Positions 7,390-19,674 of a stretch of 36,463 bases of DNA are shown piece by piece. Source of the stretch: an uncultured Anaerolineaceae bacterium. Its GTDB lineage: Bacteria > Chloroflexota > Anaerolineae > Anaerolineales > Anaerolineaceae. Where the stretch lies: the NCBI GenBank assembly GCA_964647425.1, contig CAZYIJ010000003.1:1-36463 (forward strand), read 5' to 3'. The notes below the pieces were generated by a model that worked only from the letters and a program-made list of their open reading frames with translations, had not been told where the DNA came from and did no database searches. Both the position numbers and the translations under genes were made by a program. Position 1 is the stretch's first letter. Each line of letters starts with the position of its first letter.

Positions 7390-9003
7390 ATGATAAACAT
7401 CCTCGAATTTGACCCGGTAATCACGGTGTTTCCTTACGCGCTTTTGTATTATGCCCTGCTGCTGGTTTCCAGCGGTCTCGCTCTGCTTGCCTCTAACCGG
7501 TCAACAAGGACCAATAAAGCTGCCCTCCAAACGGTCCTGGTTATCATTTTCGTCAGCCAACTGGTCCTCTTGACGGTCAATTTACTTGCCTATCAGGGTT
7601 TTCAACCTCTCAAAGCGCTTTTTCCTCTGGCACATCGAATAATCAACTTGATTATCCTGCTTTGGCTGATCTGGGCACTCTTTCGATGCCATGAGCAAAG
7701 TTTTCCTCATTGGCTGCCAATTGCGCTTACAGTTGCTGTTTTACTAACCGGTGTCCTGTTCAGCTTGTGGTGGCTGCCAAATGCCACCTCAGAAGACTTC
7801 AATCATCACTGGATGGATAACATCCTGGTTGGTTTCAACCTTGGGCTGATCTTGTTGAGCGCAATCGTCTACTACGCCCGTTACCGCAGTTGGAAGGTAG
7901 AGACCTGGCTGATTTTGGCTATTGCCGCAGCTGGTTTTATCCTCTACCTGTTATTACCCTCGCCTGAAAACATGCCAGCCGTAGTTATGCTGAGCCAGAT
8001 TCTCTATTATCCTCTTTTAATTAGTCTTTCCTCCCATCGGGACCGATCTGACGCTGACCTCACCGAGCCAAAAACGGAAGAAGATGGTCAATTGAGAGCG
8101 AACATAGCCGATGCTTTCCTTAAAGTCAGCCTGCAGTCTGACAAGAACCATTTGGTACAAGCTCTTAGTCACAGCCTGAGTCTTTATCTGACAGCCGATT
8201 TGCTGGGTTTGGTTCACTACGAACCTGGAGGCAGCCAGGCTACTCTTGAAAACACCTATGACCTGATCAGAGAAGACCACATCCAGGAAATAAGCCTGTC
8301 CACCAACCAGATGCCTGTCCTGTTCGGGAAGTTCGATCAAGGCGAAATTGTTATTTCCAATCAGGAATCAGAGCTCAAGGCAGAAAAGAGCTATCTGATG
8401 GAAGCCAGCGGCTATAACCAGATTGGCAACCTGCTGCTTTACCCTCTCAGTAAGCCACCAGATCAACCCAGGTGGGCGTTTTTGGGTTTATCTCCTTATA
8501 CCAATAAAGTATGGGGACTAAAAGATATTGCACGTCTGGACCGTTTGCGAGATAACCTCAGCAGAGTGCTCGAAAAAGCAGGTCGACTCGAACAGGATGC
8601 CCGTCAAATTGGTGCCTTACAAATCGAATTGCGTCAAAAAGAGGAAGAAGTAAACCATCTAATAACCAGTTTCGATGAAAGTCAGTCACAACTGCAAAGT
8701 TTAAGAAACGAAATTTTGCAAACTCAAGCTGCCTGGACTGAAGAAGTAAACTTGTGGATCAATCGTCAAAAAGAACTCGAGTCTGAACTTGAAACACTTC
8801 AACAAACGATCGAAGAAAATAAAGAAAGTGTCGCGGAAGTTGACCTTCTGAAGCAACAAAAGCTCCAACTTGAAGAAACCATTGTCAGGAACTCTGAACA
8901 AACCGCCCAACTGAAAACTGCAATCGACCAAGCCAGTCTTTTGCTGCAGAAATTGTCTGATCAAAACGAAGATTCAAGTCAGGTCGAAGAGAGCAAAGGT
9001 TAG
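7390..9003 (+). CDS. Hypothetical membrane protein: N-terminal polytopic domain (about 8 TM), central soluble domain, C-terminal coiled coil of about 130 aa
   Basis: Hydrophobic segments run through residue ~215. The C-terminus is heptad-like and Q/E/L-rich (LQIELRQKEEEVNHL...LESELETLQQTIEENKE...). It ends 6 nt before the LCP gene, so the two are probably co-transcribed. Confidence 0.7.
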   Translation: MINILEFDPVITVFPYALLYYALLLVSSGLALLASNRSTRTNKAALQTVLVIIFVSQLVLLTVNLLAYQGFQPLKALFPLAHRIINLIILLWLIWALFRCHEQSFPHWLPIALTVAVLLTGVLFSLWWLPNATSEDFNHHWMDNILVGFNLGLILLSAIVYYARYRSWKVETWLILAIAAAGFILYLLLPSPENMPAVVMLSQILYYPLLISLSSHRDRSDADLTEPKTEEDGQLRANIADAFLKVSLQSDKNHLVQALSHSLSLYLTADLLGLVHYEPGGSQATLENTYDLIREDHIQEISLSTNQMPVLFGKFDQGEIVISNQESELKAEKSYLMEASGYNQIGNLLLYPLSKPPDQPRWAFLGLSPYTNKVWGLKDIARLDRLRDNLSRVLEKAGRLEQDARQIGALQIELRQKEEEVNHLITSFDESQSQLQSLRNEILQTQAAWTEEVNLWINRQKELESELETLQQTIEENKESVAEVDLLKQQKLQLEETIVRNSEQTAQLKTAIDQASLLLQKLSDQNEDSSQVEESKG

Positions 9004-9009
9004 AAATTT

Positions 9010-10044
9010 ATGCGATTCAACAAACACCAATCTCTAACATTAACTGTTATTTTTATCCTTTGCATGTCTTTCATCGGCGTAATTCTGGGTAGTGTTGTAA
9101 TAACCGCCATGGCACACTCTGAGAGTTCGCCCTGGTATATCAGTCTCAGTGGCATGGAGCGTACCGCCACACCCTTTCAACCGAATTCTTTTGCCAATAT
9201 TCTCGAAGATGGCAGTATCGAACTTATCCCGCAGCCCATGTTCACCCCCACACCGGTGCCTGTCATCCCTGAGGGGGAGTTGCCGGAAAACCAAGTGAAC
9301 ATTTTGATGCTCGGTGCAGATGACTTCGGAGCGAATAACTTCCGCACAGATGTAATTATGCTGCTCTCGATCAATCCGAAGCATCAGACTGCCAGCCTCA
9401 TCTCTTTCCCTCGGGACCTTTACGTCACGATCCCGGGTTATTGGTCCAACAGGATCAATACTGTCTGGCAATTAGGCGGTTTCCCATTATTGCAGGAAAC
9501 TTTTCAAGTTAATTTTGGCTTCCGACCGGAATATTACATGATGGTGAACTATAACGGTTTCAAAGATGTGGTCAACAGCATCGGTGGAATTGACGTAACA
9601 GTCAGTGAAGAGCTGCAAGACAGCTGTCAGATCGACCCGAGCGGCTGGTGCGTCATTGAACCAGGCGAGTTGCATATGGATGGCGGCACCGCCCTATGGT
9701 ATTCCCGTTCTCGAATGACTACCTCCGATTTTGACCGCAATCGTCGGGCACAGGAAGTAGTGATGGCGATTTTCAAAAAGGCCGTCAATCTCAATATGCT
9801 CGTCAAGGTGCCCGAATTGTATGGCTTGTACCGCGAGTATGTAGACACCGACATTCCTCTCACACAGGTTTTATCACTTCTGCCAATGGCTAAACCACTG
9901 ATGAATACTGAGAATATCCGACGGTTTTCAGTCAGCAATGAAATGGTGACTAACTGGATCACGTATGAAGGTGCCTGGGTCTTGATGCCAAATTATTACG
10001 CGATTTCGGATATGCTCAACGAAGCCCTTTATCGCAACGAGTAA
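9010..10044 (+). CDS. LCP (LytR-CpsA-Psr) family cell-wall glycopolymer phosphotransferase, paralogue 1
   Basis: N-terminal TM anchor, then LCP core motifs NILMLGADD...RTDVIMLLSINP...ASLISFPRDLYVTIPG...RINT...GGIDV...SDFDRNRRAQEV. Confidence 0.88.
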   Translation: MRFNKHQSLTLTVIFILCMSFIGVILGSVVITAMAHSESSPWYISLSGMERTATPFQPNSFANILEDGSIELIPQPMFTPTPVPVIPEGELPENQVNILMLGADDFGANNFRTDVIMLLSINPKHQTASLISFPRDLYVTIPGYWSNRINTVWQLGGFPLLQETFQVNFGFRPEYYMMVNYNGFKDVVNSIGGIDVTVSEELQDSCQIDPSGWCVIEPGELHMDGGTALWYSRSRMTTSDFDRNRRAQEVVMAIFKKAVNLNMLVKVPELYGLYREYVDTDIPLTQVLSLLPMAKPLMNTENIRRFSVSNEMVTNWITYEGAWVLMPNYYAISDMLNEALYRNE

Positions 10045-10131: not shown

Positions 10132-10166
10132 AACACAAAAACGGAAGGACTATAGTCCTTCCGTTT
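10132..10166 (-). terminator. Rho-independent terminator of the peptide ABC operon
   Basis: The minus strand reads AAACGGAAGGAC-tata-GTCCTTCCGTTT followed by TTGTGTT (12-bp stem, U-rich tail). It begins 28 nt after the stop of the last permease gene. Confidence 0.75.
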
Positions 10167-10193: not shown

Positions 10194-11240
10194 CTACGAC
10201 TTACCCCTCATACGTGGGTCAAGCACGTCACGCATCGCATCACCAACAAGGTTCCAGCCCATGACAAACAACGTCAATGTGAGACCTGGGTACACCACGA
10301 TGTAACTATATCGATCCAGGTTGGTAATCCAGTTTCTTGCAAAGCTCAGGATCTGTCCCCAGTCGGCGTAACCTACCTCGGTGCCAATGCCCAGGAAAGA
10401 CAGCGCGGCAAAACCCAACACAACATCACCAATGCCAAGACTTGCCAGAACCAGTGTCGGGAAGATGGCATTCGGCAGGATGTGTTTGAACAAAATGCGG
10501 TTTTTCTTCACACCCGAGACTTGGGCTGCCAGCACAAAGTCGCGTTCTTTGATAGACAGGATATCAGCGCGAATGACACGGGCGTAACCCATCCACCCAA
10601 AAGATATCATCGCGATGAGCGGTGGCCACAAACTACGCCCGAGAACAGGTGTCAGAACGGCCGAGAAAATTAGCGCCATCATGATGTACGGAAGTGTCAT
10701 AAAGATATCCGTAATCCTCATGATGACATTGTCCACCCAGCCACCATAATATGCGGCAACCGAGCCCAACACCACTCCAATAATGACCGTCACAGCAACA
10801 ACCAACAAACCGGTTTTAAAAGCGGTGCGGGTACCCCACACAATACCATACAGAATATCATATTGACCTTGGGTAGTGCCGAAAACATGTGTCATTTCAG
10901 TCTTCCCGGTCAATGGCTCATACCAAAATGGCAATTCAGGAACTTTCTTATTCCACTCAGCTCCAGGAGCCTTGGGCTCACCGCTGTAACCATCGCGTGG
11001 CATTTTGAAGGGGTCTTTATCAACAGCAGGCATGATGACAGGAGCAAAAATTGCCATCAAAATAAAAAACAGGATCAAAATAAAACCAATAATAGATGCT
11101 GGCGTTTTAACTAAGCCTTTGACAATTCGATAGTTGTCGGTTCCCAGCACTCTTTCCAGCCAGGTGATCTTTCGGTCACTATGCACCTCATCAAGCATGC
11201 GGTTATCACCAGTTGGAATCAATTCAGGTTGTTCAGTCAT
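10194..11240 (-). CDS. Peptide/nickel ABC transporter permease (OppC/DppC type)
   Basis: Six-TM BPD_transp_1 layout with EAA-loop region AAQVSGVKKNRILFKHILPNAIFPTLV. The N-terminal extension is typical of OppC-type subunits. Confidence 0.9.
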   Translation of the reverse strand: MTEQPELIPTGDNRMLDEVHSDRKITWLERVLGTDNYRIVKGLVKTPASIIGFILILFFILMAIFAPVIMPAVDKDPFKMPRDGYSGEPKAPGAEWNKKVPELPFWYEPLTGKTEMTHVFGTTQGQYDILYGIVWGTRTAFKTGLLVVAVTVIIGVVLGSVAAYYGGWVDNVIMRITDIFMTLPYIMMALIFSAVLTPVLGRSLWPPLIAMISFGWMGYARVIRADILSIKERDFVLAAQVSGVKKNRILFKHILPNAIFPTLVLASLGIGDVVLGFAALSFLGIGTEVGYADWGQILSFARNWITNLDRYSYIVVYPGLTLTLFVMGWNLVGDAMRDVLDPRMRGKS

Positions 11241-11249
11241 CTGGACTCC

Positions 11250-12314
11250 TTATGCAAGACGGACTCTGGGGTCAATAAATGCATAGACAACGTCTATGAC
11301 CAGGTTTGAGACGATCAGGATCGAACCACTGAAAATTGCCAGACCAAGCACCGTGACAACATCCAATTGGGCTGCCGCGTCAGCGGCTGCTTTACCGATT
11401 CCAGGGTAATTGAAAACCGTTTCGGTGATCACGACACCGCCCAGCAAACCAACAATGCTGGAGCCTGCCATGGTCACGATCGGAAGCATTGCATTTGGTC
11501 GGGCGTGTTGATTGATAACGGTTCTCTCACTCAAACCTTTGGCTCGCGCGGTGGTTACATAGTCCATACGCAGTGTCTCTAACATAGAGGAACGTGTCAC
11601 ACGTACGTAAGTTGCCCAGTTGATGTAAGACAAAGTGAGGATGGGCATAATCATATGCCTCATGGCATCCCAGAATATATCAAACCGCAGATTGAGCAAG
11701 GCATCGATAGAAAGTAAATGCGTATATTCTTTGATTTCACCCGCAAATACGAGTCGACTCACCCAATCCGACATTTTGCCAGGAAAAAAGAGTTGCGGAC
11801 CAGCGTACAGAAGCATCAGCAGTAGCAAACCAAACACAAAGGTTGGAAAAGAGGTGCCAATGATACTGTAAACCCTGGCAGCCTGGTCTATAAATTTATT
11901 TTGGTTCACCGCAGCCTTTACACCCAGCCAGATACCTACTGACAGCATTGGAAAAATGGTCCACAGAGCCAGATCAACCGTGTTTGGAAAACGGTTTTTT
12001 ACGATATCAATTACATCCTGCGAAGCGGTACGAGAGTAACCGAAATCGCCAAACAGGATGCCGCCTTCACGTTCTCCAGTGACAGGGTCTTTCACGCCGA
12101 AGAGCCAAATACCATACTGCGTCAGGAAGGGTTTATCCAAACCGTATCTTGTGATAATGCCTTGGATTTGCTTGTCATTCTTGGGAAAATCCCTAACGTA
12201 TAGCGCAGACCTTTCGACTGGACCAAGCAATTGCAGCATGCCAAAGATGATCAGCGTAACTCCAATCAATAACAATGGCACCATCAGCAAACGACGAATG
12301 ATGTAATTGGTCAT
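11250..12314 (-). CDS. Peptide/nickel ABC transporter permease (OppB/DppB type)
   Basis: MTNYIIRRLLMVPLLLIGVTLIIF start typical of OppB/DppB. EAA loop DYVTTARAKGLSERTVINQHARPNAMLPIVT. Confidence 0.9.
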   Translation of the reverse strand: MTNYIIRRLLMVPLLLIGVTLIIFGMLQLLGPVERSALYVRDFPKNDKQIQGIITRYGLDKPFLTQYGIWLFGVKDPVTGEREGGILFGDFGYSRTASQDVIDIVKNRFPNTVDLALWTIFPMLSVGIWLGVKAAVNQNKFIDQAARVYSIIGTSFPTFVFGLLLLMLLYAGPQLFFPGKMSDWVSRLVFAGEIKEYTHLLSIDALLNLRFDIFWDAMRHMIMPILTLSYINWATYVRVTRSSMLETLRMDYVTTARAKGLSERTVINQHARPNAMLPIVTMAGSSIVGLLGGVVITETVFNYPGIGKAAADAAAQLDVVTVLGLAIFSGSILIVSNLVIDVVYAFIDPRVRLA

Positions 12315-12443: not shown

Positions 12444-14510
12444 TTATTCGACAAAGAAGTTGAAGATCAACACATCTTGTTGTAAAGCAGGGCGTCCGTA
12501 ATACAGACGCAGTGGTTGACCATTGCCTTCTTCGCAGCCTTCCGTGCTGAAGCGATCTAAGCCGAGCAAGGAAGTATCAACAGCGCAGACAGGGATTGGA
12601 TCGTCATAGGCATTGGTGTCGGGGTTGTAAATTGCAATCTCACCGACCAATTGATCCACCTGGGGTCGCATAGCGGTATCGACATCGATGTAGTCAGCCT
12701 CACCAGCCTGGAGCATCGCGAAGCGTGTTCCAAATTCAGGTACGATCTTAATCGCGACACGTTCGGTCTTGGCGGGTTCGCCCCAATAACCATCGAAGGC
12801 GGTCAAAACAATTTCCTCACCAGGAGTCCAGTGATCCAACTTGTAGGCGCCGGTACCATTCATGATCTTGCTGAAGGGATTGTCAGCGGAGACCATACCG
12901 TAGGTATTCTGCCAGGTATCGCATTCACCATTCCAACCACCGTTTTCAACAACCCATTCCTTGTCCATGATGGAACCCCAACCCTGGGCAATAGTAGCCA
13001 ACCAGGGACCCCAGCCTTGTGCAAGGGTAATGGTTACAGTGTTAGCTTCATCATCAGTTGCGAAGTGGGAGTAAACTGTCTCGCATGCTCCAACAAGTGT
13101 TTCAGGAGGATTAGCGACGAGAGTTTCACGGCTGTCAGCGGAAGCAAAGTCATCAACAATACCAGTGATATCATCGATGCCAACGCCGAGGATAGGCTCA
13201 GCCAGCAGCCACTGGGGTGAAGAATAACCACCCTGCAGCAGACCGCGGACAAAGGAGTAAACCACATCTGATGGGGTCAGATCGCCACCTTCGTGGAATT
13301 TGACACCATCGCGAAGTTGGAAGGTCCATTCAGTACCGTCTTCGGAAACTTCCCAGGATTCGGCTAATTGACCAACAAATTTGTCTGTCGCAATGCCATC
13401 GTAGTATACGAGAGTCTCGTAAACGTTCTGGATGATTTCACCACTGGCAGTATCGTAGCTCAAAGCCGGATCCAGGGTATCTGCATCACCGATGCTGGCA
13501 TTCACGATTGTCGTGGGGTCAGCGCCGCCGTCTTTGGATATGGTCTTGTAATATTCACCTGAGAAAATCGGGTTTGTAACGCGACCAGATAACCAGGATT
13601 GTTCGTAACCGTGGGTGGTAACAAGCACCACTGGGATACCAACAGCTTCATCGAAGTAAAGTTTATTGAACTCCTGATAGACGGCATGACGTTCTTCAGG
13701 ATCCACCAGGGTTACACCTTCGTCCAGTAAGGCTTTGAATTGGCTTCTCAGATCTTCTGGGAGGTTCTGGCGAGCACCATAGGTGCCGGTGGTGTAGGGT
13801 TGATACCAGTTGTGGGCATCATGAATATCTTCCAGCCAGCCAGCAACCATGATGGGGAGTTTATGGGCTCGTTGAGCTGCCAGGTAGGCAGGCCAGGGCA
13901 GACCGAGAACTTCAATGACAAATTTCTCATTAATCTCGGCCAGGTTGTTTTGCAGGATTTCTGCATAGGTCTGGCGGGTGGCATTACCAGTGTTGTAACC
14001 CATCTGCAATCTGAAACCCATTTCCCAGATGTCATCAGGATCTTCACCAGCAGGAATACCATCTTTGTCGACATCAGCCAGTTTGAATTCTTCAGCTGCC
14101 TTTTCCAGGTCCAAAGTGAAATACTCAGCGTCCATGTCATAACCGGGCATACCGATCAGGGACAGAACCTTGGACTGAATAGCTTCGCCCTGATAGATTT
14201 CATCAATGACAGCATCCCAGTCAAACGCGTATGCAAAACCGCGGCGAACGTGAACGTCATCGAAAATTGTGGGGGGAGCGCCGTTGCCGTCGAGCATATT
14301 GGAACCCAGATATTGACTTTGAGAAACAGGTTCCTCTACTACGGGTTCTTCAACAACAGGTTCTTCCACTACAGGTTCTTCTACCTCGGGCTCCTCTGCT
14401 ACTGGCTCTACCACAGGGGGTTCTTCAACAACAGGGACTGCAGTTTGGCATGCTGACAAAAGCATGCCCAGAACTAACACTAAAGCAAGTAAAACTGAAA
14501 ACTTACGCAT
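12444..14510 (-). CDS. Family-5 (Opp/Dpp/Nik-type) ABC substrate-binding lipoprotein, circularly permuted relative to the canonical family order
   Basis: Signal peptide plus lipobox MRKFSVLLALVLVLGMLLSAC, then an (EEPVV)n linker. Family motifs are all present but in rotated order (see finding). AAGGAGGAG SD upstream. Confidence 0.9.
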   Translation of the reverse strand: MRKFSVLLALVLVLGMLLSACQTAVPVVEEPPVVEPVAEEPEVEEPVVEEPVVEEPVVEEPVSQSQYLGSNMLDGNGAPPTIFDDVHVRRGFAYAFDWDAVIDEIYQGEAIQSKVLSLIGMPGYDMDAEYFTLDLEKAAEEFKLADVDKDGIPAGEDPDDIWEMGFRLQMGYNTGNATRQTYAEILQNNLAEINEKFVIEVLGLPWPAYLAAQRAHKLPIMVAGWLEDIHDAHNWYQPYTTGTYGARQNLPEDLRSQFKALLDEGVTLVDPEERHAVYQEFNKLYFDEAVGIPVVLVTTHGYEQSWLSGRVTNPIFSGEYYKTISKDGGADPTTIVNASIGDADTLDPALSYDTASGEIIQNVYETLVYYDGIATDKFVGQLAESWEVSEDGTEWTFQLRDGVKFHEGGDLTPSDVVYSFVRGLLQGGYSSPQWLLAEPILGVGIDDITGIVDDFASADSRETLVANPPETLVGACETVYSHFATDDEANTVTITLAQGWGPWLATIAQGWGSIMDKEWVVENGGWNGECDTWQNTYGMVSADNPFSKIMNGTGAYKLDHWTPGEEIVLTAFDGYWGEPAKTERVAIKIVPEFGTRFAMLQAGEADYIDVDTAMRPQVDQLVGEIAIYNPDTNAYDDPIPVCAVDTSLLGLDRFSTEGCEEGNGQPLRLYYGRPALQQDVLIFNFFVE
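14328..14432 (-). repeat. Seven imperfect 15-nt tandem units encoding the (P)VVEEP linker of the peptide SBP
   Basis: Units read on the + strand: aggttcctctactac / gggttcttcaacaac / aggttcttccactac / aggttcttctacctc / gggctcctctgctac / tggctctaccacagg / gggttcttcaacaac. Confidence 0.85.
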
Positions 14511-14564
14511 TTTTCTCCTCCTTGAGAGAACTTTTTTTTGGTTAAACTTGGTTTTGTCAATCTT

Positions 14565-15593
14565 TTATATTGAATTTTCCTCAGTTAGCACCTCCTTTGA
14601 ATGAGTGGGCAACTCAGCCTTAAAGCATTCAACAAAATGTCCGGGTAAGATCTCACGAAATTCAGGTCTACCCCGTTCACATTCCTGATCTGCTAGTGGG
14701 CAGCGTGTTCTGAAACGACAACCAGAAGGCGGATTAGCCGGTGATGGCACATCCCCTTCCATAACGATACGGGTATGTTTGCGATAATGCTCAGGGTCCG
14801 GTACTGGAATAGAAGAGAGCAGGGCTTTCGTATAGGGGTGCAGTGGATTATTGTAAATCTCATTGCGATCCGCCAATTCAACGATGATGCCCAAATACAT
14901 GACCGCAACGCGGTCGCTAATATGACGAACCATGGAAAGGTCATGGGCAATAAATAAGTATGTCAGGTTGAGTTCTTTTTGCAGATCTTCAAACAAGTTC
15001 ACGATTTGTGCCTGGATCGAAACATCCAGCGCAGAAATTGGTTCATCGCAGACGATAAATGCAGGGTTCAAGGCCAAAGCGCGTGCGATACCAATCCGCT
15101 GGCGCTGTCCACCAGAGAATTCGTGTGGAAAACGATGGATAAAGTCCGGGTCCAATTTGACCAGGTTCATCAATTCCTTGACACGGTTATCAATTTCTTT
15201 GCCGGTTGCCAATCCAAAAGCCACAAGGGGCTCGGCAACAATATCACGAACAGTCATACGCGGATTCAGGCTTGCGTAAGGGTCCTGGAAAATCATCTGG
15301 ATTTCCTGGCGCATTAAGCGCATCGGTTCTTCTTTGAGACTAACAAGATCAGTGTCTTTAAAATAGATGTGACCGGCTGTAGGTTTGTAAAGTTGTACGA
15401 TAGCGCGTCCGGTCGTCGTTTTGCCACAACCAGATTCACCGACAAGTCCGAGGGTTTCGCCCTGTTGGATCGCGAAAGAAACTCCATCCACCGCTTTGAC
15501 AGAACCGACCTGCCGGCGAATAACGCCACGATAGATCGGGAAGTGTACTTTTAGGTCTTTTACTGTGATCAAAGATTCGTCATTATTCTGCAT
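14565..15593 (-). CDS. Peptide ABC transporter ATP-binding protein (OppF/DppF type)
   Basis: Walker [10 protein letters not shown], signature FSGGQRQR, Walker [13 protein letters not shown], and a C-terminal oligopeptide-transporter Cys motif [15 protein letters not shown] use the ATG at 15593 (MQNNDES..., GGGAG 9 nt upstream) rather than the track start at 15608. It overlaps the upstream ATPase gene by 11 nt. Confidence 0.9.
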
Positions 15594-16584
15594 CACGCAC
15601 GCTCCCATCCTCAGTATTCACCCAGCAAGCCACCCGATGGCCGTCCTCGATCTGTATTAATGGAGGATTTTCCATTCTACATTTCTCCATCACCCATTGA
15701 CAACGTGGGGCAAATGGGCAAGAGTGAGGTTTCTTGTAGAGCATCGGAGGCATTCCCTCGATGGAATAAAGGCGTTTACGTCCTTCAGCTTGAATCTGAG
15801 GCAAGCTGTCCAGTAAACCAATCGTATACGGATGCGAAGGTCTTTTATACAACTCATCAATCAAGGCTTCTTCGATAACAAAACCACCATACATTACGTT
15901 CACGCGGTGAGCGATACTCGCAACCACACCCAGGTCGTGCGTGATCCAAATGATTGCCATACCAACTTCTTCACGTAAGCGGATCACTAAATCCACAATC
16001 TGCGCCTGAATAGTTACGTCTAAAGCAGTGGTGGGTTCATCTGCGATAAGAATCTGGGGAGCACAACTGAGAGCCATGGCGATCATGACGCGCTGACGCA
16101 TACCGCCAGAATACTGGTGCGGGTAATCCTTCAAACGGTCAGCAGCTCTTGGAATGCCTACCTGCTCGAGTAATTCGATCGAGCGTGCACGCGCCTGGTC
16201 CTGGCTAAATCCCAGGTGCAACATCAATGGTTCAGCCAATTGCTTTCCAATGGTCATGACCGGATTCAATGAAGTCATCGGGTCCTGGAAAATCATTGAA
16301 ATCTGACCTCCCCGTACGTGACGAATATCATCATCGCTAATTTGGAGCAGATCTTGTCCCTTGAACATGGCAGTTCCAGCAACGATTTTGCCAGGGGGTT
16401 GTTGGATCAGGCGAAGGATGGAAAGCATCGACACACTCTTACCGCAACCACTTTCGCCGACAATTCCCAGTGTTTCTCCTTCATTTAGTGTGAAATCGAC
16501 GCCGTTGACAGCATGAACAATCCCTTCGGGGGTGTTGAATTGCGTCTCCAGTCCTTGAACATTCAGTAATTCATTTGTCATCAA
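15583..16584 (-). CDS. Peptide ABC transporter ATP-binding protein (OppD/DppD type)
   Basis: Walker [10 protein letters not shown], signature YSGGMRQR, Walker [13 protein letters not shown], and C-terminal [14 protein letters not shown]. Confidence 0.92.
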
Positions 16585-16591
16585 TTTGTCC

Positions 16592-17575
16592 TTAATTGAA
16601 CTGTATTAGGTCTTTGTGATGGAAAATGTGACTATATTTTTTTAAATTATTAAGTTCACCAGAAAAATTTACTGGTCCGATTATATCATTTTTATAAAAG
16701 TCAATTCTATTACTCTTATGGGATACATGTGCAAATTGCTCATTACGGTTAAATTTTAGATGGGTTATTTCGCAGAATGTAGGTTGAGAATACACAAGGT
16801 GGCAGAGTGCGTACCTGCCGTTAAAATCGACCAGAACCTTCATTAATCCCAAATAATTATCTGCTGATACCAGCGTAAGGGAGTGCGGTTGTAACACAAG
16901 ATCGTCTAAAGGACGGACAATGCTCAGGTGCATTTTCCTGGCTTCCAACTTGTCAACTTCCTGGTTGTAGTAGGTCGCTCCATTTTCCAAAAGGGTGTCT
17001 ATTGTGACAATTGGTTCTCGAAATTTGTTCGACATCAGCAAATCCCCGGAAAATCCTGCACCAGTCATAATTGCCATACAAATAATGAAGGGGCTCAACG
17101 CGCCGATTACACTTGAAGAAGCCAGGCTCTGGTCTATCAGCAGATTTTCCATGATCCCACATAAGACACAGGAAAAACCAATCGCAAAAATCCCATAAAA
17201 CCAGAAGTGACCGATGTTTGTCAATTCTTCAAATTTTATGACAGGGATAAACTCAGGAAGCAGTTTCGTCGTTAGCAAGGGAACAAGCTTGATTGGAATA
17301 TTGATAACCAAATAGGTAAATAGAACTGATAACCCACCCCAAAGCACCAAACTCAATAAACCATTCTCGAATTTTGCTGTCAAATAACCAGCCAAAGTGG
17401 CTAAAGGCACACAAATCAGAAGCGCAGGTAGGATTTTTACAAAGGGCAGCGAGTAATTATACCGGACCAGGATAGTGGCATCCATCCCCCAGGCAGCCAG
17501 TGTGAAAAATAGTCCGGCAAGTAGTCCATAGACAATCCCAAGCTTTGTTCGCCTACGCGAAAAATTACCAGCCAT
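16592..17575 (-). CDS. Hypothetical polytopic membrane protein with a soluble C-terminal domain of about 130 aa; first gene of the peptide ABC operon
   Basis: Five to six hydrophobic helices in residues ~10-185. The C-terminal part has no motif I recognise, and its last ~100 nt are visibly AT-rich. The stop lies 7 nt upstream of the OppD-type start. Confidence 0.6.
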   Translation of the reverse strand: MAGNFSRRRTKLGIVYGLLAGLFFTLAAWGMDATILVRYNYSLPFVKILPALLICVPLATLAGYLTAKFENGLLSLVLWGGLSVLFTYLVINIPIKLVPLLTTKLLPEFIPVIKFEELTNIGHFWFYGIFAIGFSCVLCGIMENLLIDQSLASSSVIGALSPFIICMAIMTGAGFSGDLLMSNKFREPIVTIDTLLENGATYYNQEVDKLEARKMHLSIVRPLDDLVLQPHSLTLVSADNYLGLMKVLVDFNGRYALCHLVYSQPTFCEITHLKFNRNEQFAHVSHKSNRIDFYKNDIIGPVNFSGELNNLKKYSHIFHHKDLIQFN

Positions 17576-17741: not shown

Positions 17742-18680
17742 ATGAAGCAGAAAAACGAAGCAATCAACGCACACATATCGGAGAGCACACTGCTCCAACC
17801 TGCGATTCAAGCCTGGAAATACTTTTTGAGGGACCAAGGTCGCTCACACCACACACTCAAGGCATTTGAAGCTGACATGATGTTGCTGGAAGAATTTATG
17901 CCTACTGACAAACAAATCGGGCAAATCTCCACAAAAGAACTCGAAGATTACCTGACCTGGCTCGAAAAGGATCGCGGAGTGCCATGCAGTCCGAAGACGC
18001 TCTCCCGTCGAATCACATCATTGAAATCCTTTTTCCGCTGGCTGTCTCAGAACGCAGTTGTTTCTATCGACCCCGCTGAAAAATTGATTCAAAAAACTGT
18101 CACCAGCCCCCTGCCAACGGTACTTACCGCCCAGGAACTAAAAGTTGCTCTCGAAGCAGCTGATTCAATCCGTACTTCTGCCAGCGCTGACCCAAGACCC
18201 TACGTTTTGATGCTCCTGGTATTGGAAACCGCCTTGAAAAAAGGCGAATGCCTGAATTTAAAAACCAATCATCTTGAGATAAGCAACCCTGAGGAAGCTT
18301 ACGTCTTCGTACGATATCCCAATCAACGCTATCGTTTCAAGGAACGCAAAATCTCGGTTTCGCCGGAATGGGTGGACGCTTACAATCAATACGCAGAAAA
18401 ATATCAGATCAAAGATCAAGTCTTTCCCTGGTCTCAACGACGTCTGGAATATTTGTTGGAAGACGTCACCAACGCCGCGAAGATGGACAAACATATTAGT
18501 TTTGATATGCTGCGCTGGACCAGCGCACTCAATGACTTCTCTAACGGAGTCGAGCAGGATAAGATCCGTCAGAAACTGGGAATCTCAAAAATTCAATGGC
18601 GTGAAGTAAAAAGCAAACTGCGCAACCTCGCTTCGGAGTATGGATACACACTTCCAGAAGTTGAAGAAAACCAGAGCTAA
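17742..18680 (+). CDS. Tyrosine-recombinase (XerC/XerD/phage-integrase)-like protein with a degenerate active site
   Basis: The N-terminal SAM-like core-binding domain is typical (TLKAFEADMMLLEEF...ISTKELEDYLTWL...SPKTLSRRITSLKSFFRWL). The C-terminal domain is alignable to XerD, but the catalytic positions are replaced (see finding). Confidence 0.8.
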   Translation: MKQKNEAINAHISESTLLQPAIQAWKYFLRDQGRSHHTLKAFEADMMLLEEFMPTDKQIGQISTKELEDYLTWLEKDRGVPCSPKTLSRRITSLKSFFRWLSQNAVVSIDPAEKLIQKTVTSPLPTVLTAQELKVALEAADSIRTSASADPRPYVLMLLVLETALKKGECLNLKTNHLEISNPEEAYVFVRYPNQRYRFKERKISVSPEWVDAYNQYAEKYQIKDQVFPWSQRRLEYLLEDVTNAAKMDKHISFDMLRWTSALNDFSNGVEQDKIRQKLGISKIQWREVKSKLRNLASEYGYTLPEVEENQS

Positions 18681-18705
18681 CTTGCGCCCTAATCATAGAG
18701 AAACA

Positions 18706-19674
18706 ATGAAATATACAACTCGTAACGAACGCAAACGCGGTTTTCCATTTGGTTGGATACTGCTCTTTATTAGCCTGGCTTTGCTCGCAATGGCAGGCAT
18801 CAGCATCAACAAGATGCGCGATGGTCAGCCTGGTTTCATGACCAACCTTTGGGAGAGTGAAACCAACCTTGAACCCGACCCTTACCTCGACGGCAGCGCC
18901 CTGACCCTGCCAGTGCCCGGTCATATTAAAACTGTGATGCTACTGGGTTCTGACTATCAACCCACGATTGGCTTCCGCACTGACGTAATGCTGCTGGTTG
19001 CAATGAATACCAAGACCAGCGAGTTTCATCTGTTGTCTTTCCCTCGCGACTTATGGGTCAACATCCCCGGAGTTGGTCCGCAGCGTCTCAACACTGCCCT
19101 GCCTTTTGGCGGAACAGAGCTGCTCAGCGATACGCTGGCGCTTAATTTCGGATTCAGACCCGACAATTTTGCCATGGTGGATTTTGACGGCTTCAAGTAC
19201 ATCGTTGACGTGATGGGCGGCATTGACGTTGATGTTGAGAAACGTATGGAAGATGAATGCTGGCTGAATGATACTGGCTGGTGTGTGATTGAACCCGGCA
19301 GGCAATATATGACTGCTGGTGATGCCTTTTGGTATGTGCGCGCCCGTAAAAATACCTCTGACTTCGACCGCAACCGCAGACAACAGGAAGTCATCAAAGC
19401 AATGGTCAGCAAAGCTCTGCGACCATCTGAATTGCCCAACCTGGGCAGGGTTTTGAATGCCGTCAGCGATACAGTTGAAACAAATTTGAAGATTTCGGAT
19501 ATGTTCTTATACGTCGTTCCGTTATCCAAATTCTTCGATGGGCCAGATATCACCACCTACCAGATCACCCCTGCAGAAGCCGTACCTGGTATGACCGATG
19601 GCGGTGCTTCTGTGCTTTACCCGGATATTAATGCAATTCAGGCAATCATTCGACAAGCACTTTGGATTGATTAG
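18706..19674 (+). CDS. LCP (LytR-CpsA-Psr) family cell-wall glycopolymer phosphotransferase, paralogue 2
   Basis: ORF track 18640..19674. I use the ATG at 18706 (MKYTTRNERKRGFPFGWILLFISLALLAMAG: basic tail plus TM), which avoids overlap with the upstream gene. Motifs VMLLGSDY...RTDVMLLVAMN...FHLLSFPRDLWVNIPG...RLNT...GGIDV...SDFDRNRRQQEV. Confidence 0.85.
   Translation: MKYTTRNERKRGFPFGWILLFISLALLAMAGISINKMRDGQPGFMTNLWESETNLEPDPYLDGSALTLPVPGHIKTVMLLGSDYQPTIGFRTDVMLLVAMNTKTSEFHLLSFPRDLWVNIPGVGPQRLNTALPFGGTELLSDTLALNFGFRPDNFAMVDFDGFKYIVDVMGGIDVDVEKRMEDECWLNDTGWCVIEPGRQYMTAGDAFWYVRARKNTSDFDRNRRQQEVIKAMVSKALRPSELPNLGRVLNAVSDTVETNLKISDMFLYVVPLSKFFDGPDITTYQITPAEAVPGMTDGGASVLYPDINAIQAIIRQALWID

What the first reader, a model, noticed from the sequence alone, without database searches (positions are those of the whole stretch)
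12444..14510. Circularly permuted family-5 (Opp/Dpp-type) substrate-binding protein
Canonical family-5 SBPs such as E. coli DppA carry their landmarks in a fixed order.

Canonical order:
- signal peptide
- TL...tLDP strand
- [26 protein letters not shown]
- GTGPFQL...FDGYWG
- ITPDASVRYAKLQKNE
- YLSYN...PLDDVKVRQALTYAVNKDAI
- YDPEKAKALLKEAG
- MGWTGDNGDPDNF
- RVELYKQAQ...
- C-terminus

Observed order in this 688-aa ORF:
- After the lipoprotein leader and EEPV linker, the protein starts with the late half:
  - residues 83-102: FDDVHVRRGFAYAFDWDAVI
  - residues 133-142: LDLEKAAEEF
  - residues 222-235: VAGWLEDIHDAHNW
  - residues 273-294: ERHAVYQEFNKLYFDEAVGIPV
  - residues 320-326: a C-terminus-like YYKTISK
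- It then continues without interruption into the early half:
  - residues 333-349: TTIVNASIGDADTLDPA
  - residues 382-409: LAESWEVSEDGTEWTFQLRDGVKFHEGG
  - residues 552-577: GTGAYKLDHWTPGEEIVLTAFDGYWG
  - residues 585-610: VAIKIVPEFGTRFAMLQAGEADYIDV
- It stops at ...DVLIFNFFVE (681-688). This is exactly the fN strand that normally precedes the pfxDxxVR motif now found at the N-terminus.

The old termini are fused head-to-tail at about nt 13530. The new termini fall at the crossover between the two lobes.

Inference: only one of the two hinge strands of the Venus-flytrap fold would remain covalently continuous. That could change the opening and closing mechanics, or the docking to the permease.

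The ORF is uninterrupted and has an SD and a lipobox. It sits inside an otherwise intact operon, so it does not look like a pseudogene. I know of no described circularly permuted Opp/Dpp SBP, but I cannot search.
Basis: partly seen in the sequence, partly recalled or inferred. Interest (0 to 1): 0.72.

Follow-up and report, generated by a model that had tools for sequence, protein, structure and literature searches.

The report
Naturally circularly permuted peptide-type binding protein
The substrate-binding lipoprotein of this Opp/Dpp-type ABC importer really does have its two sequence halves in swapped order; the arrangement is conserved and under purifying selection in many Anaerolineae, and it is one of about ten or more apparently independent circular permutations in the same protein subfamily.

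Summary
Confirmed. The 688-aa ORF lies on the minus strand (12444-14510) and is a family-5 (cluster C) substrate-binding lipoprotein with swapped halves. Residues 63-243 match Pfam SBP_bac_5 positions 199-364. Residues 377-618 match positions 1-185.

It is not an assembly artefact or a pseudogene. Collinear orthologues (53-93% identity) occur in at least 80 Anaerolineae species genomes. They sit in the same operon: membrane protein, two ATPases, binding protein, two permeases. dN/dS is 0.05-0.10.

Both halves are closest to the same canonical-order Chloroflexota proteins (about 57% identity). In those proteins the query's last residue joins directly onto its first mature residue, so the permutation is clean.

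The chain break lies in a subfamily-specific loop just after the first hinge-crossing strand. The strand is retained, but it now ends as the free C-terminus.

Relatives carry the same or three other cut sites. Each type has its own lipoprotein signal. The types are scattered among canonical sisters, which implies about ten or more independent events. Fused tandem proteins (two full copies in one chain) also exist and are plausible intermediates.

I found no published permuted cluster-C binding protein. The known precedent is the cluster-B protein TpMglB-2. The ligand and any change in mechanics remain untested.

The parts
12444..14510 (-). Permuted family-5 substrate-binding lipoprotein gene (688 aa plus stop)
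   Evidence: ORF. Pfam SBP_bac_5 at 217 bits. Swapped HMM coordinates. dN/dS 0.05-0.10 against orthologues.
14515..14523 (-). Shine-Dalgarno sequence AAGGAGGAG, 4 nt upstream of the ATG
   Evidence: Read directly from the sequence.
14448..14510 (-). Lipoprotein signal peptide with lipobox LSAC (residues 1-21; C21 is the predicted lipidated Cys)
   Evidence: Sequence. C21 is invariant in alignment A1.
14328..14447 (-). Pro/Glu/Val-rich tether (residues 22-61, EEPV repeats)
   Evidence: Sequence. Variable in length among homologues. pLDDT below 50.
13533..14327 (-). Late half 'B' (residues 62-326), equivalent to DppA 275-507: lobe 2/domain III plus the second hinge strand and the old C-terminal segment (...YYKTISK)
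   Evidence: Query 83-316 aligns to DppA 276-497. Pfam HMM 199-364 maps to residues 63-243.
13515..13532 (-). Junction linker DGGADP (residues 327-332) joining the old C-terminus to the old mature N-terminus
   Evidence: Canonical relatives end ...SK(D/E/Q) and start their mature chain with ...K(N/D)P(D/T)T.
12447..13514 (-). Early half 'A' (residues 333-688), equivalent to DppA 1-274: first strand of domain I, extra domain II, the rest of domain I, and the first hinge-crossing strand
   Evidence: Query 335-423 aligns to DppA 3-97 and query 489-607 to DppA 132-236. Pfam HMM 1-185 maps to residues 377-618.
12447..12512 (-). C-terminal long beta-strand (residues 667-688, RLYYGRPALQQDVLIFNFFVE): the first hinge-crossing strand, now ending as the free C-terminus
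   Evidence: DSSP strand at 667-686 in the AF2 model. Homology to DppA ...MPGLNVGYLSYN (plus my reading of the sequence).
14565..15608 (-). OppF-type ATPase
   Evidence: ABC_tran plus oligo_HPY. Conserved synteny.
15583..16584 (-). OppD-type ATPase
   Evidence: ABC_tran plus oligo_HPY. Conserved synteny.
11250..12314 (-). OppB-type permease
   Evidence: BPD_transp_1_N plus BPD_transp_1. Conserved synteny.
10194..11240 (-). OppC-type permease
   Evidence: OppC_N plus BPD_transp_1. Conserved synteny.
16592..17575 (-). First gene of the operon: 327-aa membrane protein of unknown family (about 5 TM helices plus a soluble C-terminal part)
   Evidence: No Pfam, NCBIfam or PDB hit. Hydropathy. Present upstream in most of the 80 related loci.
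10139..10166 (-). Terminator-like hairpin (12-bp stem plus T-run) after the last permease gene
   Evidence: Consensus scan only.

Best explanation
What it is. The gene encodes a functional, lipid-anchored substrate-binding protein of an Opp/Dpp-type (cluster C, Pfam SBP_bac_5) ABC importer, and its chain is a clean natural circular permutation of the canonical fold.

Anatomy of the mature chain.
- A lipobox Cys21 is followed by a roughly 40-residue Pro/Glu-rich tether.
- The mature chain then starts in a loop at the beginning of lobe 2 (domain III) and runs through lobe 2.
- It crosses back to lobe 1 by the second hinge strand and reaches the old C-terminus (...YYKTISK).
- A 6-residue linker (DGGADP) joins this to the old mature N-terminus.
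- The chain builds lobe 1 (domains I and II) and ends with the first hinge-crossing strand as a free C-terminus.

Inferred consequences. The bilobed Venus-flytrap and its two-strand hinge are kept. The bulk of lobe 2 is covalently tied to lobe 1 by one crossover only. The other hinge strand docks its last ~14 residues into lobe 2 non-covalently.

Inferred function. It binds a ligand in the cleft and delivers it to the OppBC-type permease, powered by the OppDF-type ATPases. The ligand is probably a peptide or another amine-bearing compound, because the Asp that binds the peptide amino group in DppA (D408) is kept as the invariant D228.

Inferred origin. In-frame tandem duplication or fusion of a canonical-order ancestor gave A-B-A-B. 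The first A was then lost behind the signal peptide, and the last B was lost.

Broader pattern. The same kind of event has happened repeatedly in this Chloroflexota-rich subfamily, at four loop sites that are all longer than the corresponding DppA loops.
For: SHOWN
- Swapped profile and DppA coordinates.
- More than 120 protein clusters (at 90% identity) that are 63-100% identical and mostly full-length collinear. 216 GTDB species genomes encode a relative. The best 80 are collinear matches, 66 of them full-length or nearly so and the rest cut by contig ends or lacking the N-terminal ~60 residues. All but one come from Anaerolineae/Chloroflexota MAGs at 53-93% identity.
- The operon order (membrane protein, ATPase, ATPase, SBP, permease, permease) is conserved.
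- dN/dS is 0.05-0.10.
- Both halves have the same nearest canonical-order relatives, P0404/P0395/P0396/P0403: 58-60% identity for half A and 54-56% for half B.
- In canonical P0123 the query's residue 686 is followed directly by the equivalent of residue 61. The cut is therefore clean, with no duplicated strand.
- Fold control: the query model (pLDDT 78) aligns to PDB family-5 chains over about 300 columns. The canonical P0404 model (pLDDT 90) aligns over about 630 columns at TM 0.73-0.87.
- The model has a long C-terminal strand at 667-686 and a second long strand at 291-304.
- D228 aligns with DppA D408 and is invariant.

RECURRENCE
- Four chain orders besides the canonical one were found. 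Each has its own lipobox signal.
- The permuted types lie scattered among canonical sisters in a permutation-agnostic neighbour-joining tree.
- Each permuted protein is closer to a canonical protein than to the same permutation type elsewhere. Examples: P0164 67% vs 46%, P0375 69% vs 59%, P0128 59% vs 48%, P0145 55% vs 44%. This held in 99.6-100% of column resamplings for the 13 comparisons that define the separate origins.
- Two other types also form families: CP3 has 44 clusters and CP4 has 23.
- Permuted genes were seen in independent assemblies and in ABC-transporter operons: the full ATPase-ATPase-SBP-permease-permease order for P0137, and SBP followed by two permeases for P0375, whose contigs start just upstream of the SBP gene.
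- All four cut sites map to loops of the high-confidence canonical model and to segments longer than in DppA.

INTERMEDIATES
- Fused tandem proteins with the same short B-to-A junction exist. P0125 has two full copies that are 60% identical to each other. P0175 (1600 aa) is a weaker, partial case with an incomplete first copy. P0430 has the order A-B-A and is cut by the contig end.
Against: - No coordinates of the model could be inspected. The placement of the break relative to the hinge rests on homology to DppA, on DppA's domain boundaries recalled from the literature, and on DSSP strings.
- The model is poorly confident in exactly the conserved N-terminal motif (residues 62-75) and in the loop at 225-245.
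- The ligand is unknown. All NCBIfam equivalog scores are far below their cut-offs, and the DppA carboxylate-binding Arg355 is not kept (it aligns to M170).
- The duplication-truncation route is inferred. No flanking gene remnants exist here: the intergenic gaps are only 54 and 129 nt. No tandem SBP genes were seen within 5 kb of 80 related metagenome loci.
- Independent-origin counts come from neighbour-joining and identity comparisons, not from a maximum-likelihood phylogeny. Three of the inferred events rest on single contigs (P0164, P0257, P0151).
Confidence: 0.88

Rival explanations
1. Assembly artefact: two tandem SBP genes were collapsed or mis-joined, giving an apparent late-half/early-half ORF.
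For: The window is a single unreferenced sequence, and I had no reads. SBP paralogues are common in these genomes.
Against: The same order occurs in 138 protein clusters in my sample. It occurs in 80 species genomes from many projects, on contigs up to 3.07 Mb, always in the same operon. Divergence runs from 53 to 93% identity and dN/dS is below 0.1. An artefact cannot be inherited and diverge in this way.
Confidence: 0.01
2. The gene is a chimera rather than a true permutation: the C-terminal half of one divergent paralogue was fused to the N-terminal half of another, for example by a deletion across two adjacent SBP genes.
For: Fused tandem proteins with copies only 60% identical exist, so halves of different copies could be combined. 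This is mechanistically one version of the duplication route.
Against: The two halves of the query have the same nearest canonical relatives at similar identity (A 58-60%, B 54-56%). Across 175 canonical proteins the identities of the two halves correlate at r = 0.76. There is no sign of different histories for the two halves.
Confidence: 0.06
3. The permutation is functionally consequential. With only one covalent crossover, and with the lipid tether moved from lobe 1 to lobe 2, the opening/closing dynamics, affinity or docking to the permease differ from canonical SBPs, and this was selected.
For: - By homology mapping, the break leaves the first hinge strand as a free end.
- The N-terminal motif right after the tether (Y67, G69, S70, N71, L73, D74, G75, N76, G77, P79) is invariant.
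- The same cut site arose at least four times.
- For the cluster-B permutant TpMglB-2, its authors raised the idea that the permuted topology is an adaptation to membrane tethering (PMC4990184).
Against: - The N-terminal motif is equally conserved in canonical-order relatives, where it is internal, so its conservation is not due to the new terminus.
- The 40-residue flexible tether should make the anchoring point less critical.
- Three other cut sites that leave both crossovers intact are tolerated in the same subfamily, which fits near-neutral topology changes at permissive loops.
- TpMglB-2 kept normal ligand binding and ligand-induced closure (PMC4990184).
Confidence: 0.25
4. The gene is a decaying or non-functional relic in an otherwise intact operon.
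For: The unusual domain order could suggest a rearranged gene.
Against: The ORF is uninterrupted, with a strong Shine-Dalgarno sequence and a lipobox. dN/dS is 0.05-0.10. It is the only SBP gene in the operon in all the loci examined. About 190 columns are invariant among 42 homologues.
Confidence: 0.02

Closest known systems
E. coli DppA and other solved cluster-C (family 5) SBPs (1DPP/1DPE, 8Z1Y, OppA, NikA, HbpA/GbpA)
   Same: Same Pfam family (217 bits). All landmark motifs are present. The bilobed fold has an extra domain and two long hinge strands. The amino-group-binding Asp is kept (DppA D408 corresponds to D228). The operon partners are of the same type.
   Different: The chain order is rotated. 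DppA 275-507 comes first and DppA 1-274 last, joined by a 6-residue linker. No PDB chain aligns over more than about half of the model. About 20-30% sequence identity. There are several loop insertions relative to DppA, and the lipoprotein carries a long tether.
Canonical-order Chloroflexota homologues of the same subfamily (e.g. P0404, P0371, P0396; 'ABC transporter substrate-binding protein')
   Same: About 57% identity over both halves. They share the subfamily-specific insertions (NxYIGSGxLDGNGIP, GGWDGxCxTWQN, GWxEDIHDPHNW) and a lipobox plus tether.
   Different: They have the ancestral A+B order. Their model aligns full-length to DppA/OppA (TM 0.73-0.87).
Treponema pallidum Tp0684 / TpMglB-2 ('Cluster Bc'), a naturally circularly permuted glucose-binding lipoprotein (PMC4990184)
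   Same: A natural circular permutation of an ABC-transporter SBP, conserved in a clade, in a tethered lipoprotein. Ligand binding and closure are retained.
   Different: It belongs to a different SBP cluster (B, type I, three-segment hinge), with no sequence relationship. That permutation moves one strand region and adds a fourth crossover. Here half of the protein is rotated and one covalent crossover is lost. Only a single topology is described there, whereas this subfamily has four cut sites.
Classical natural circular permutants explained by duplication followed by truncation (e.g. DNA methyltransferases, saposin/swaposin). This comparison is from my own knowledge.
   Same: The proposed route is the same. 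Extant fused tandem forms (P0125, P0430; P0175 partly) fit the predicted intermediate.
   Different: Here the N-terminal signal peptide must be retained or regained at each event, and many independent events occurred within one subfamily.
Engineered circular permutants of SBPs used in biosensors (reviewed e.g. in PMC6335823)
   Same: They show that the Venus-flytrap fold tolerates new termini at surface loops.
   Different: They are man-made and mostly in clusters B, D and F, not natural cluster-C proteins.

Membership tests
Pfam PF00496 SBP_bac_5 / cluster C SBPs | Sequence match to the family profile above the curated cut-off | tested here: met
   217 bits against a cut-off of 32.4. Each half alone also passes: 78.4 and 140.4 bits.
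Pfam PF00496 SBP_bac_5 / cluster C SBPs | Canonical collinear order of the profile (N-terminal strand, extra domain, domain I, domain III, C-terminal segment) | tested here: not met
   Residues 63-243 match HMM 199-364 and residues 377-618 match HMM 1-185. DppA coordinates are swapped.
Pfam PF00496 SBP_bac_5 / cluster C SBPs | Bilobed fold with an extra domain and a two-beta-strand hinge (as described for cluster C in PMC7312458) | tested here: inconclusive
   The AF2 model (pLDDT 78, pTM 0.75) has two long strands at 291-304 and 667-686. Foldseek probability is 1.0 to DppA/OppA, but over half the length only.
Pfam PF00496 SBP_bac_5 / cluster C SBPs | Export signal, and a gene next to OppBCDF-type permease and ATPase genes | tested here: met
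   Lipobox LSAC with invariant C21. BPD_transp_1, OppC_N, ABC_tran and oligo_HPY neighbours. Synteny in the 80 loci, complete wherever contig length allows.
Specific equivalogs: DppA, OppA, NikA, CntA, GsiB, SapA (NCBIfam) | Whole-protein score above the curated equivalog cut-off | tested here: not met
   Best scores are nickel_nikA 119 against 393, DppA 113 against 1005 and OppA 49 against 947. No substrate assignment can be made from these.
Peptide-binding Dpp/Opp-type SBPs (functional class) | Conserved Asp that salt-bridges the ligand's alpha-amino group (DppA D408, per PMC8566422) | tested here: met
   D228 aligns with D408 and is invariant in 42 homologues. The DppA carboxylate-binding R355 is not kept (it aligns to M170). 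This is a hint only.
Peptide-binding Dpp/Opp-type SBPs (functional class) | Demonstrated binding or transport of peptides | not testable with these tools
   Needs ITC/DSF with peptide and metal-chelate libraries, or transport assays.
Natural circular permutant (general definition) | Same residues and fold as a collinear homologue, with termini moved and the old termini joined; both halves share one ancestry | tested here: met
   In canonical P0123 the sequence joins q686 directly to q61. The query joins the old C-terminus to the old N-terminus by 6 residues. The halves share their nearest relatives.
TpMglB-2-like 'Cluster Bc' permuted SBPs | Homology to MglB-type cluster B proteins with the Tp0684 topology | tested here: not met
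   No MglB or cluster-B chain appears among the 60 listed of 81 PDB sequence hits, all of which are family 5. The resemblance is in the phenomenon only.

The most novel reading that the evidence does not exclude
This Chloroflexota-centred subfamily of lipid-anchored cluster-C binding proteins is a natural 'circular-permutation scan'. About ten or more independent permutations recur at four loops, fused tandem intermediates are still extant, and at least some permutations are adaptive. The query's type is the main candidate, because it leaves a single covalent link between the lobes and moves the membrane tether to the other lobe. The proposed advantage is a change in how the tethered protein opens, closes or docks on the permease in a single-membrane cell envelope.
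Probability: 0.25. Interest if true: 0.85.

Novelty: new variant of a known kind. Interest (0 to 1): 0.68.

Why it matters
Substrate-binding proteins are the textbook hinge-bending receptors and the scaffold of many biosensors.

What this case offers:
- It is a natural permutant of the largest and most complex class, cluster C, conserved for a long time. It shows that the fold and its partnership with the transporter do not need the canonical chain connectivity, not even two covalent links between the lobes.
- The same subfamily holds several other permutation points, canonical sisters at 55-69% identity, and fused tandem forms. Together these give a ready-made comparative series for testing how chain topology, tether position and hinge connectivity affect binding dynamics and delivery to the permease.
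- The series also documents the duplication-truncation route of permutation with intermediates still present.

Practical consequences:
- Profile-based annotation calls these proteins ordinary 'ABC transporter substrate-binding proteins' and misses the rearrangement.
- Sequential structure aligners see only half of the protein.

Tried and rejected
1. Duplicated-strand idea. I suspected that the N-terminal YLGSN motif was a second copy of the C-terminal ...LIFNF strand, a relic of overlapping ends. Rejected: in canonical relatives the two motifs are consecutive (...FNFxIxTEGGN-NYIGSGxLDGNG), so the cut is clean.
2. Partial-duplication intermediates. Long canonical proteins whose alignment seemed to run past the old C-terminus (P0216, P0248, P0207, P0221, P0201) carry unrelated C-terminal extensions, not a second A segment. 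P0475 was a misalignment of its low-complexity tether.
3. Gene remnants or tandem SBP genes next to permuted genes. None were found: the gaps here are 54 and 129 nt, and no second full SBP lies within 5 kb in 80 metagenome loci.
4. Flanking duplication or a mobile element. The two LytR_cpsA_psr genes flanking the operon are only 37% identical, so this is not a recent duplication.
5. Metal site. The GWLEDIHDAHNW loop looked like a His/Asp metal site, but it is the subfamily's version of the usual family-5 GW..D..DP.NF motif and is shared by canonical relatives. No conclusion was drawn.
6. The upstream 327-aa membrane protein gave no hit in Pfam, NCBIfam or the PDB, so it gives no clue to the substrate.
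7. Literature. Eight full-text searches, six of them combining circular permutation with SBP, OppA, SBP_bac_5 or Chloroflexi terms, found no natural cluster-C permutant. The library lacks most subscription journals, so absence is not proof.
8. A permutation-aware superposition (CE-CP) could not be run, because model coordinates are not exposed.
Full report
**The observation**

The ORF lies on the minus strand, 12444..14510, and encodes 688 aa.

Pfam SBP_bac_5 matches at 217 bits against a cut-off of 32.4.
- Residues 63-243 match HMM positions 199-364.
- Residues 377-618 match HMM positions 1-185.

Against solved structures the same swap is seen. Query 83-316 aligns to E. coli DppA 276-497, query 335-423 to DppA 3-97, and query 489-607 to DppA 132-236, each with a significant E-value.

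The protein starts with a lipoprotein signal (LSAC, C21) and a 40-residue EEPV-type tether. A strong Shine-Dalgarno sequence precedes the ATG.

**Real gene or artefact**

- More than 120 protein clusters at 63-100% identity carry the same order; 110 of the 120 listed cover the query at 99-100%, the rest 85-91%.
- A scan of one genome per GTDB species found 216 genomes encoding a relative. The best 80 are collinear matches at 53-93% identity, 66 of them spanning residues 1-6 to 688; the others are cut by contig ends or start near residue 55-67. All but one are Anaerolineae/Chloroflexota MAGs, on contigs up to 3.07 Mb. The exception is a 6.6-kb contig binned as Thiomargarita, probably contamination.
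- In nearly all of these loci the gene sits in the same operon: an unknown membrane protein, an OppD-type ATPase, an OppF-type ATPase, the SBP, then OppB- and OppC-type permeases.
- dN/dS against nine orthologues is 0.05-0.10.

Mis-assembly and pseudogene explanations are excluded.

**A true, clean permutation**

A search of 1.84 billion representative proteins, remapped domain by domain onto the query, shows that most close relatives (40-57% identity) have the canonical order.

I call residues 329-688 half A (equivalent to DppA 1-274) and residues 62-326 half B (equivalent to DppA 275-507).
- In canonical P0123, A runs to the equivalent of query residue 686 and B starts at the equivalent of residue 61 in the very next residue. 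The query's C-terminus and mature N-terminus are therefore neighbours in the ancestral chain.
- The old C-terminus (...YYKTISK) is joined to the old mature N-terminus (TTIV...) by the linker DGGADP.
- Both halves have the same nearest canonical relatives at similar identity: 58-60% for A and 54-56% for B. This argues against a chimera of divergent paralogues.

As a fold control I modelled both proteins.
- The query model (pLDDT 78) aligns with family-5 PDB chains over only about 300 columns (TM 0.37-0.43, E about 1e-15).
- The model of canonical P0404 (pLDDT 90) aligns with the same chains over about 630 columns (TM 0.73-0.87, E about 1e-37).

No solved chain has the permuted order.

**Where the break lies**

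Cluster-C proteins have two lobes joined by two antiparallel hinge strands (PMC7312458, PMC8566422).

By alignment, query P674 corresponds to DppA P260. From my own recollection of the DppA papers, that residue is the boundary between domain I and domain III. VLIFNF corresponds to the DppA strand YLSYN. The model has one long strand at 667-686 and a second at 291-304.

The chain therefore ends just after the first hinge-crossing strand, in a loop that is about 20 residues longer than in DppA.
- Shown: the strand is retained and conserved.
- Inferred: its last ~14 residues complete the lobe-2 sheet without being covalently continuous with the rest of lobe 2. The bulk of lobe 2 hangs on one covalent crossover.

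The break is one strand beyond the crossover, and any mechanical effect is untested.

**The wider pattern**

The same remapping revealed other chain orders among relatives, each with its own lipobox signal and tether:

| Type | Cut position (query numbering) | Examples |
|---|---|---|
| CP1 | 688\|62 (the query's own cut) | P0121, P0375, P0192, P0239 |
| CP2 | about 147-160 | P0128, P0131, P0257 |
| CP3 | about 445-465 | P0137, P0141, P0164, P0333 |
| CP4 | 531\|532 | P0145, P0151 |

CP3 and CP4 are families in their own right.
- CP3: 44 clusters.
- CP4: 23 clusters, all ending ...GGWDG(T/K)C...

P0375 and P0137 are each encoded on contigs from three separate assembly sources (ENA, JGI, Logan). 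P0137 sits in the full ATPase-ATPase-SBP-permease-permease operon; P0375 is followed by the two permeases, with the upstream part not covered by its contigs. CP2 was found on two contigs that are 74% identical.

I built a permutation-agnostic alignment in query coordinates and a neighbour-joining tree from it. The permuted proteins are scattered among canonical sisters. Each is clearly closer to a canonical protein than to the same type elsewhere:
- P0164: 67% vs 46%
- P0375: 69% vs 59%
- P0239: 54% vs 39%
- P0128: 59% vs 48%
- P0145: 55% vs 44%

This held in 99.6-100% of column resamplings for the 13 comparisons that define separate origins. The query itself is only marginally closer to canonical P0404 than to P0375 (57% vs 54%, 93%), so that separation rests on the P0375 and P0121 comparisons. 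Taking the universal family-5 order as ancestral, this implies about 13 events. Roughly ten of them are supported by more than one sequence or contig.

All four cut sites fall in loops of the confident canonical model and in segments longer than in DppA.

All permutants share the same style of B-to-A junction...SK, then 3-5 residues, then K(N/D)P(D/T)T. The same junction is present in fused tandem proteins. P0125 has two full copies that are 60% identical to each other. P0430 has the order A-B-A and is cut by the contig end. P0175 is a partial case whose junction differs. These are the intermediates expected from the duplication-then-truncation route.

That route is my inference. No remnants flank the gene here, and no tandem SBP genes were seen near 80 related loci.

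**Function**

The operon is a standard Opp/Dpp-type importer.
- The Asp that holds the peptide amino group in DppA (D408; PMC8566422) aligns with D228, which is invariant.
- The dipeptide carboxylate-binding Arg is not kept.
- No NCBIfam equivalog comes near its cut-off.

A peptide-like ligand is my best guess, at about 40%. The upstream membrane protein gave no clue.

**Known or new**

Eight full-text searches were run, six of them aimed at natural permutants. They found one natural permuted ABC binding protein: the cluster-B glucose receptor TpMglB-2 of Treponema pallidum (PMC4990184). Its permutation adds a fourth crossover, and it keeps normal binding and closure. Nothing was found for cluster C/family 5. 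The library omits most subscription journals, so this is not proof of absence.

I rate the finding a new variant of a known kind. Circular permutation of a Venus-flytrap receptor is known. New here are the cluster-C case, the loss of one covalent lobe link, and above all the repeated permutation at four sites with intermediates still present.

**Verdict**

The finding is real and correctly interpreted. Its broader setting makes it more interesting than a one-off. The ligand and the functional consequences of the topology are open.

Noticed in passing
window 16592-17575 (-): The first gene of the operon encodes a 327-aa protein with about five transmembrane helices and a soluble C-terminal part. 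It has no Pfam, NCBIfam or PDB match. It is conserved upstream of the ATPase genes in most of the 80 related Anaerolineae loci, so it may be an uncharacterised accessory component of this transporter.
   Followed up: partly
window 9010-10044 (+) and 18640-19674 (+); also 17742-18680 (+): Two LytR_cpsA_psr paralogues (37% identical) flank the ABC operon on the opposite strand. A XerC/phage-integrase-type gene overlaps the start of the second one.
   Followed up: partly
proteins P0122, P0127, P0132, P0153 (relatives; not in the window): Canonical-order members of the same SBP subfamily are fused behind N-terminal Ser/Thr-protein-kinase-like domains (about 970-1120 aa). This suggests that the binding domain is also used as an extracellular sensor.
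   Followed up: no
proteins P0125 (1372 aa), P0175 (1600 aa), P0430 (757 aa, cut by the contig end): Single polypeptides holding two SBP copies in tandem. In P0125 and P0430 the copies are joined by the same short junction as in the permutants; P0175's first copy is incomplete and its junction differs. The two copies of P0125 are 60% identical to each other.
   Followed up: partly
protein P0192 (NCBI MFQ6126131.1): An SBP with the query's cut site, but of independent origin, is annotated in a Heimdallarchaeota MAG on a 19.9-kb contig. This could be lateral transfer or a binning error.
   Followed up: no
locus L071 (DYPD01000170.1, 6.6 kb): The only non-Chloroflexota genome hit for the permuted operon is a short contig in a Thiomargarita MAG. 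It is probably bin contamination.
   Followed up: no
window 12447-14510 (-), residues 476, 530, 642, 659: Four invariant cysteines (C476, C530, C642, C659) lie in subfamily-specific insertions and are likely extracytoplasmic disulfides. The CP4 permutants end one residue after the C530 equivalent.
   Followed up: no
window 10139-10166 (-): A 12-bp-stem hairpin with a T-run lies right after the last permease gene. It is a likely operon terminator.
   Followed up: no
window 7390-9003 (+): A 537-aa ORF with no Pfam family and only weak coiled-coil-type (SMC/Rad50) similarities lies directly upstream of the first LytR_cpsA_psr gene.
   Followed up: no
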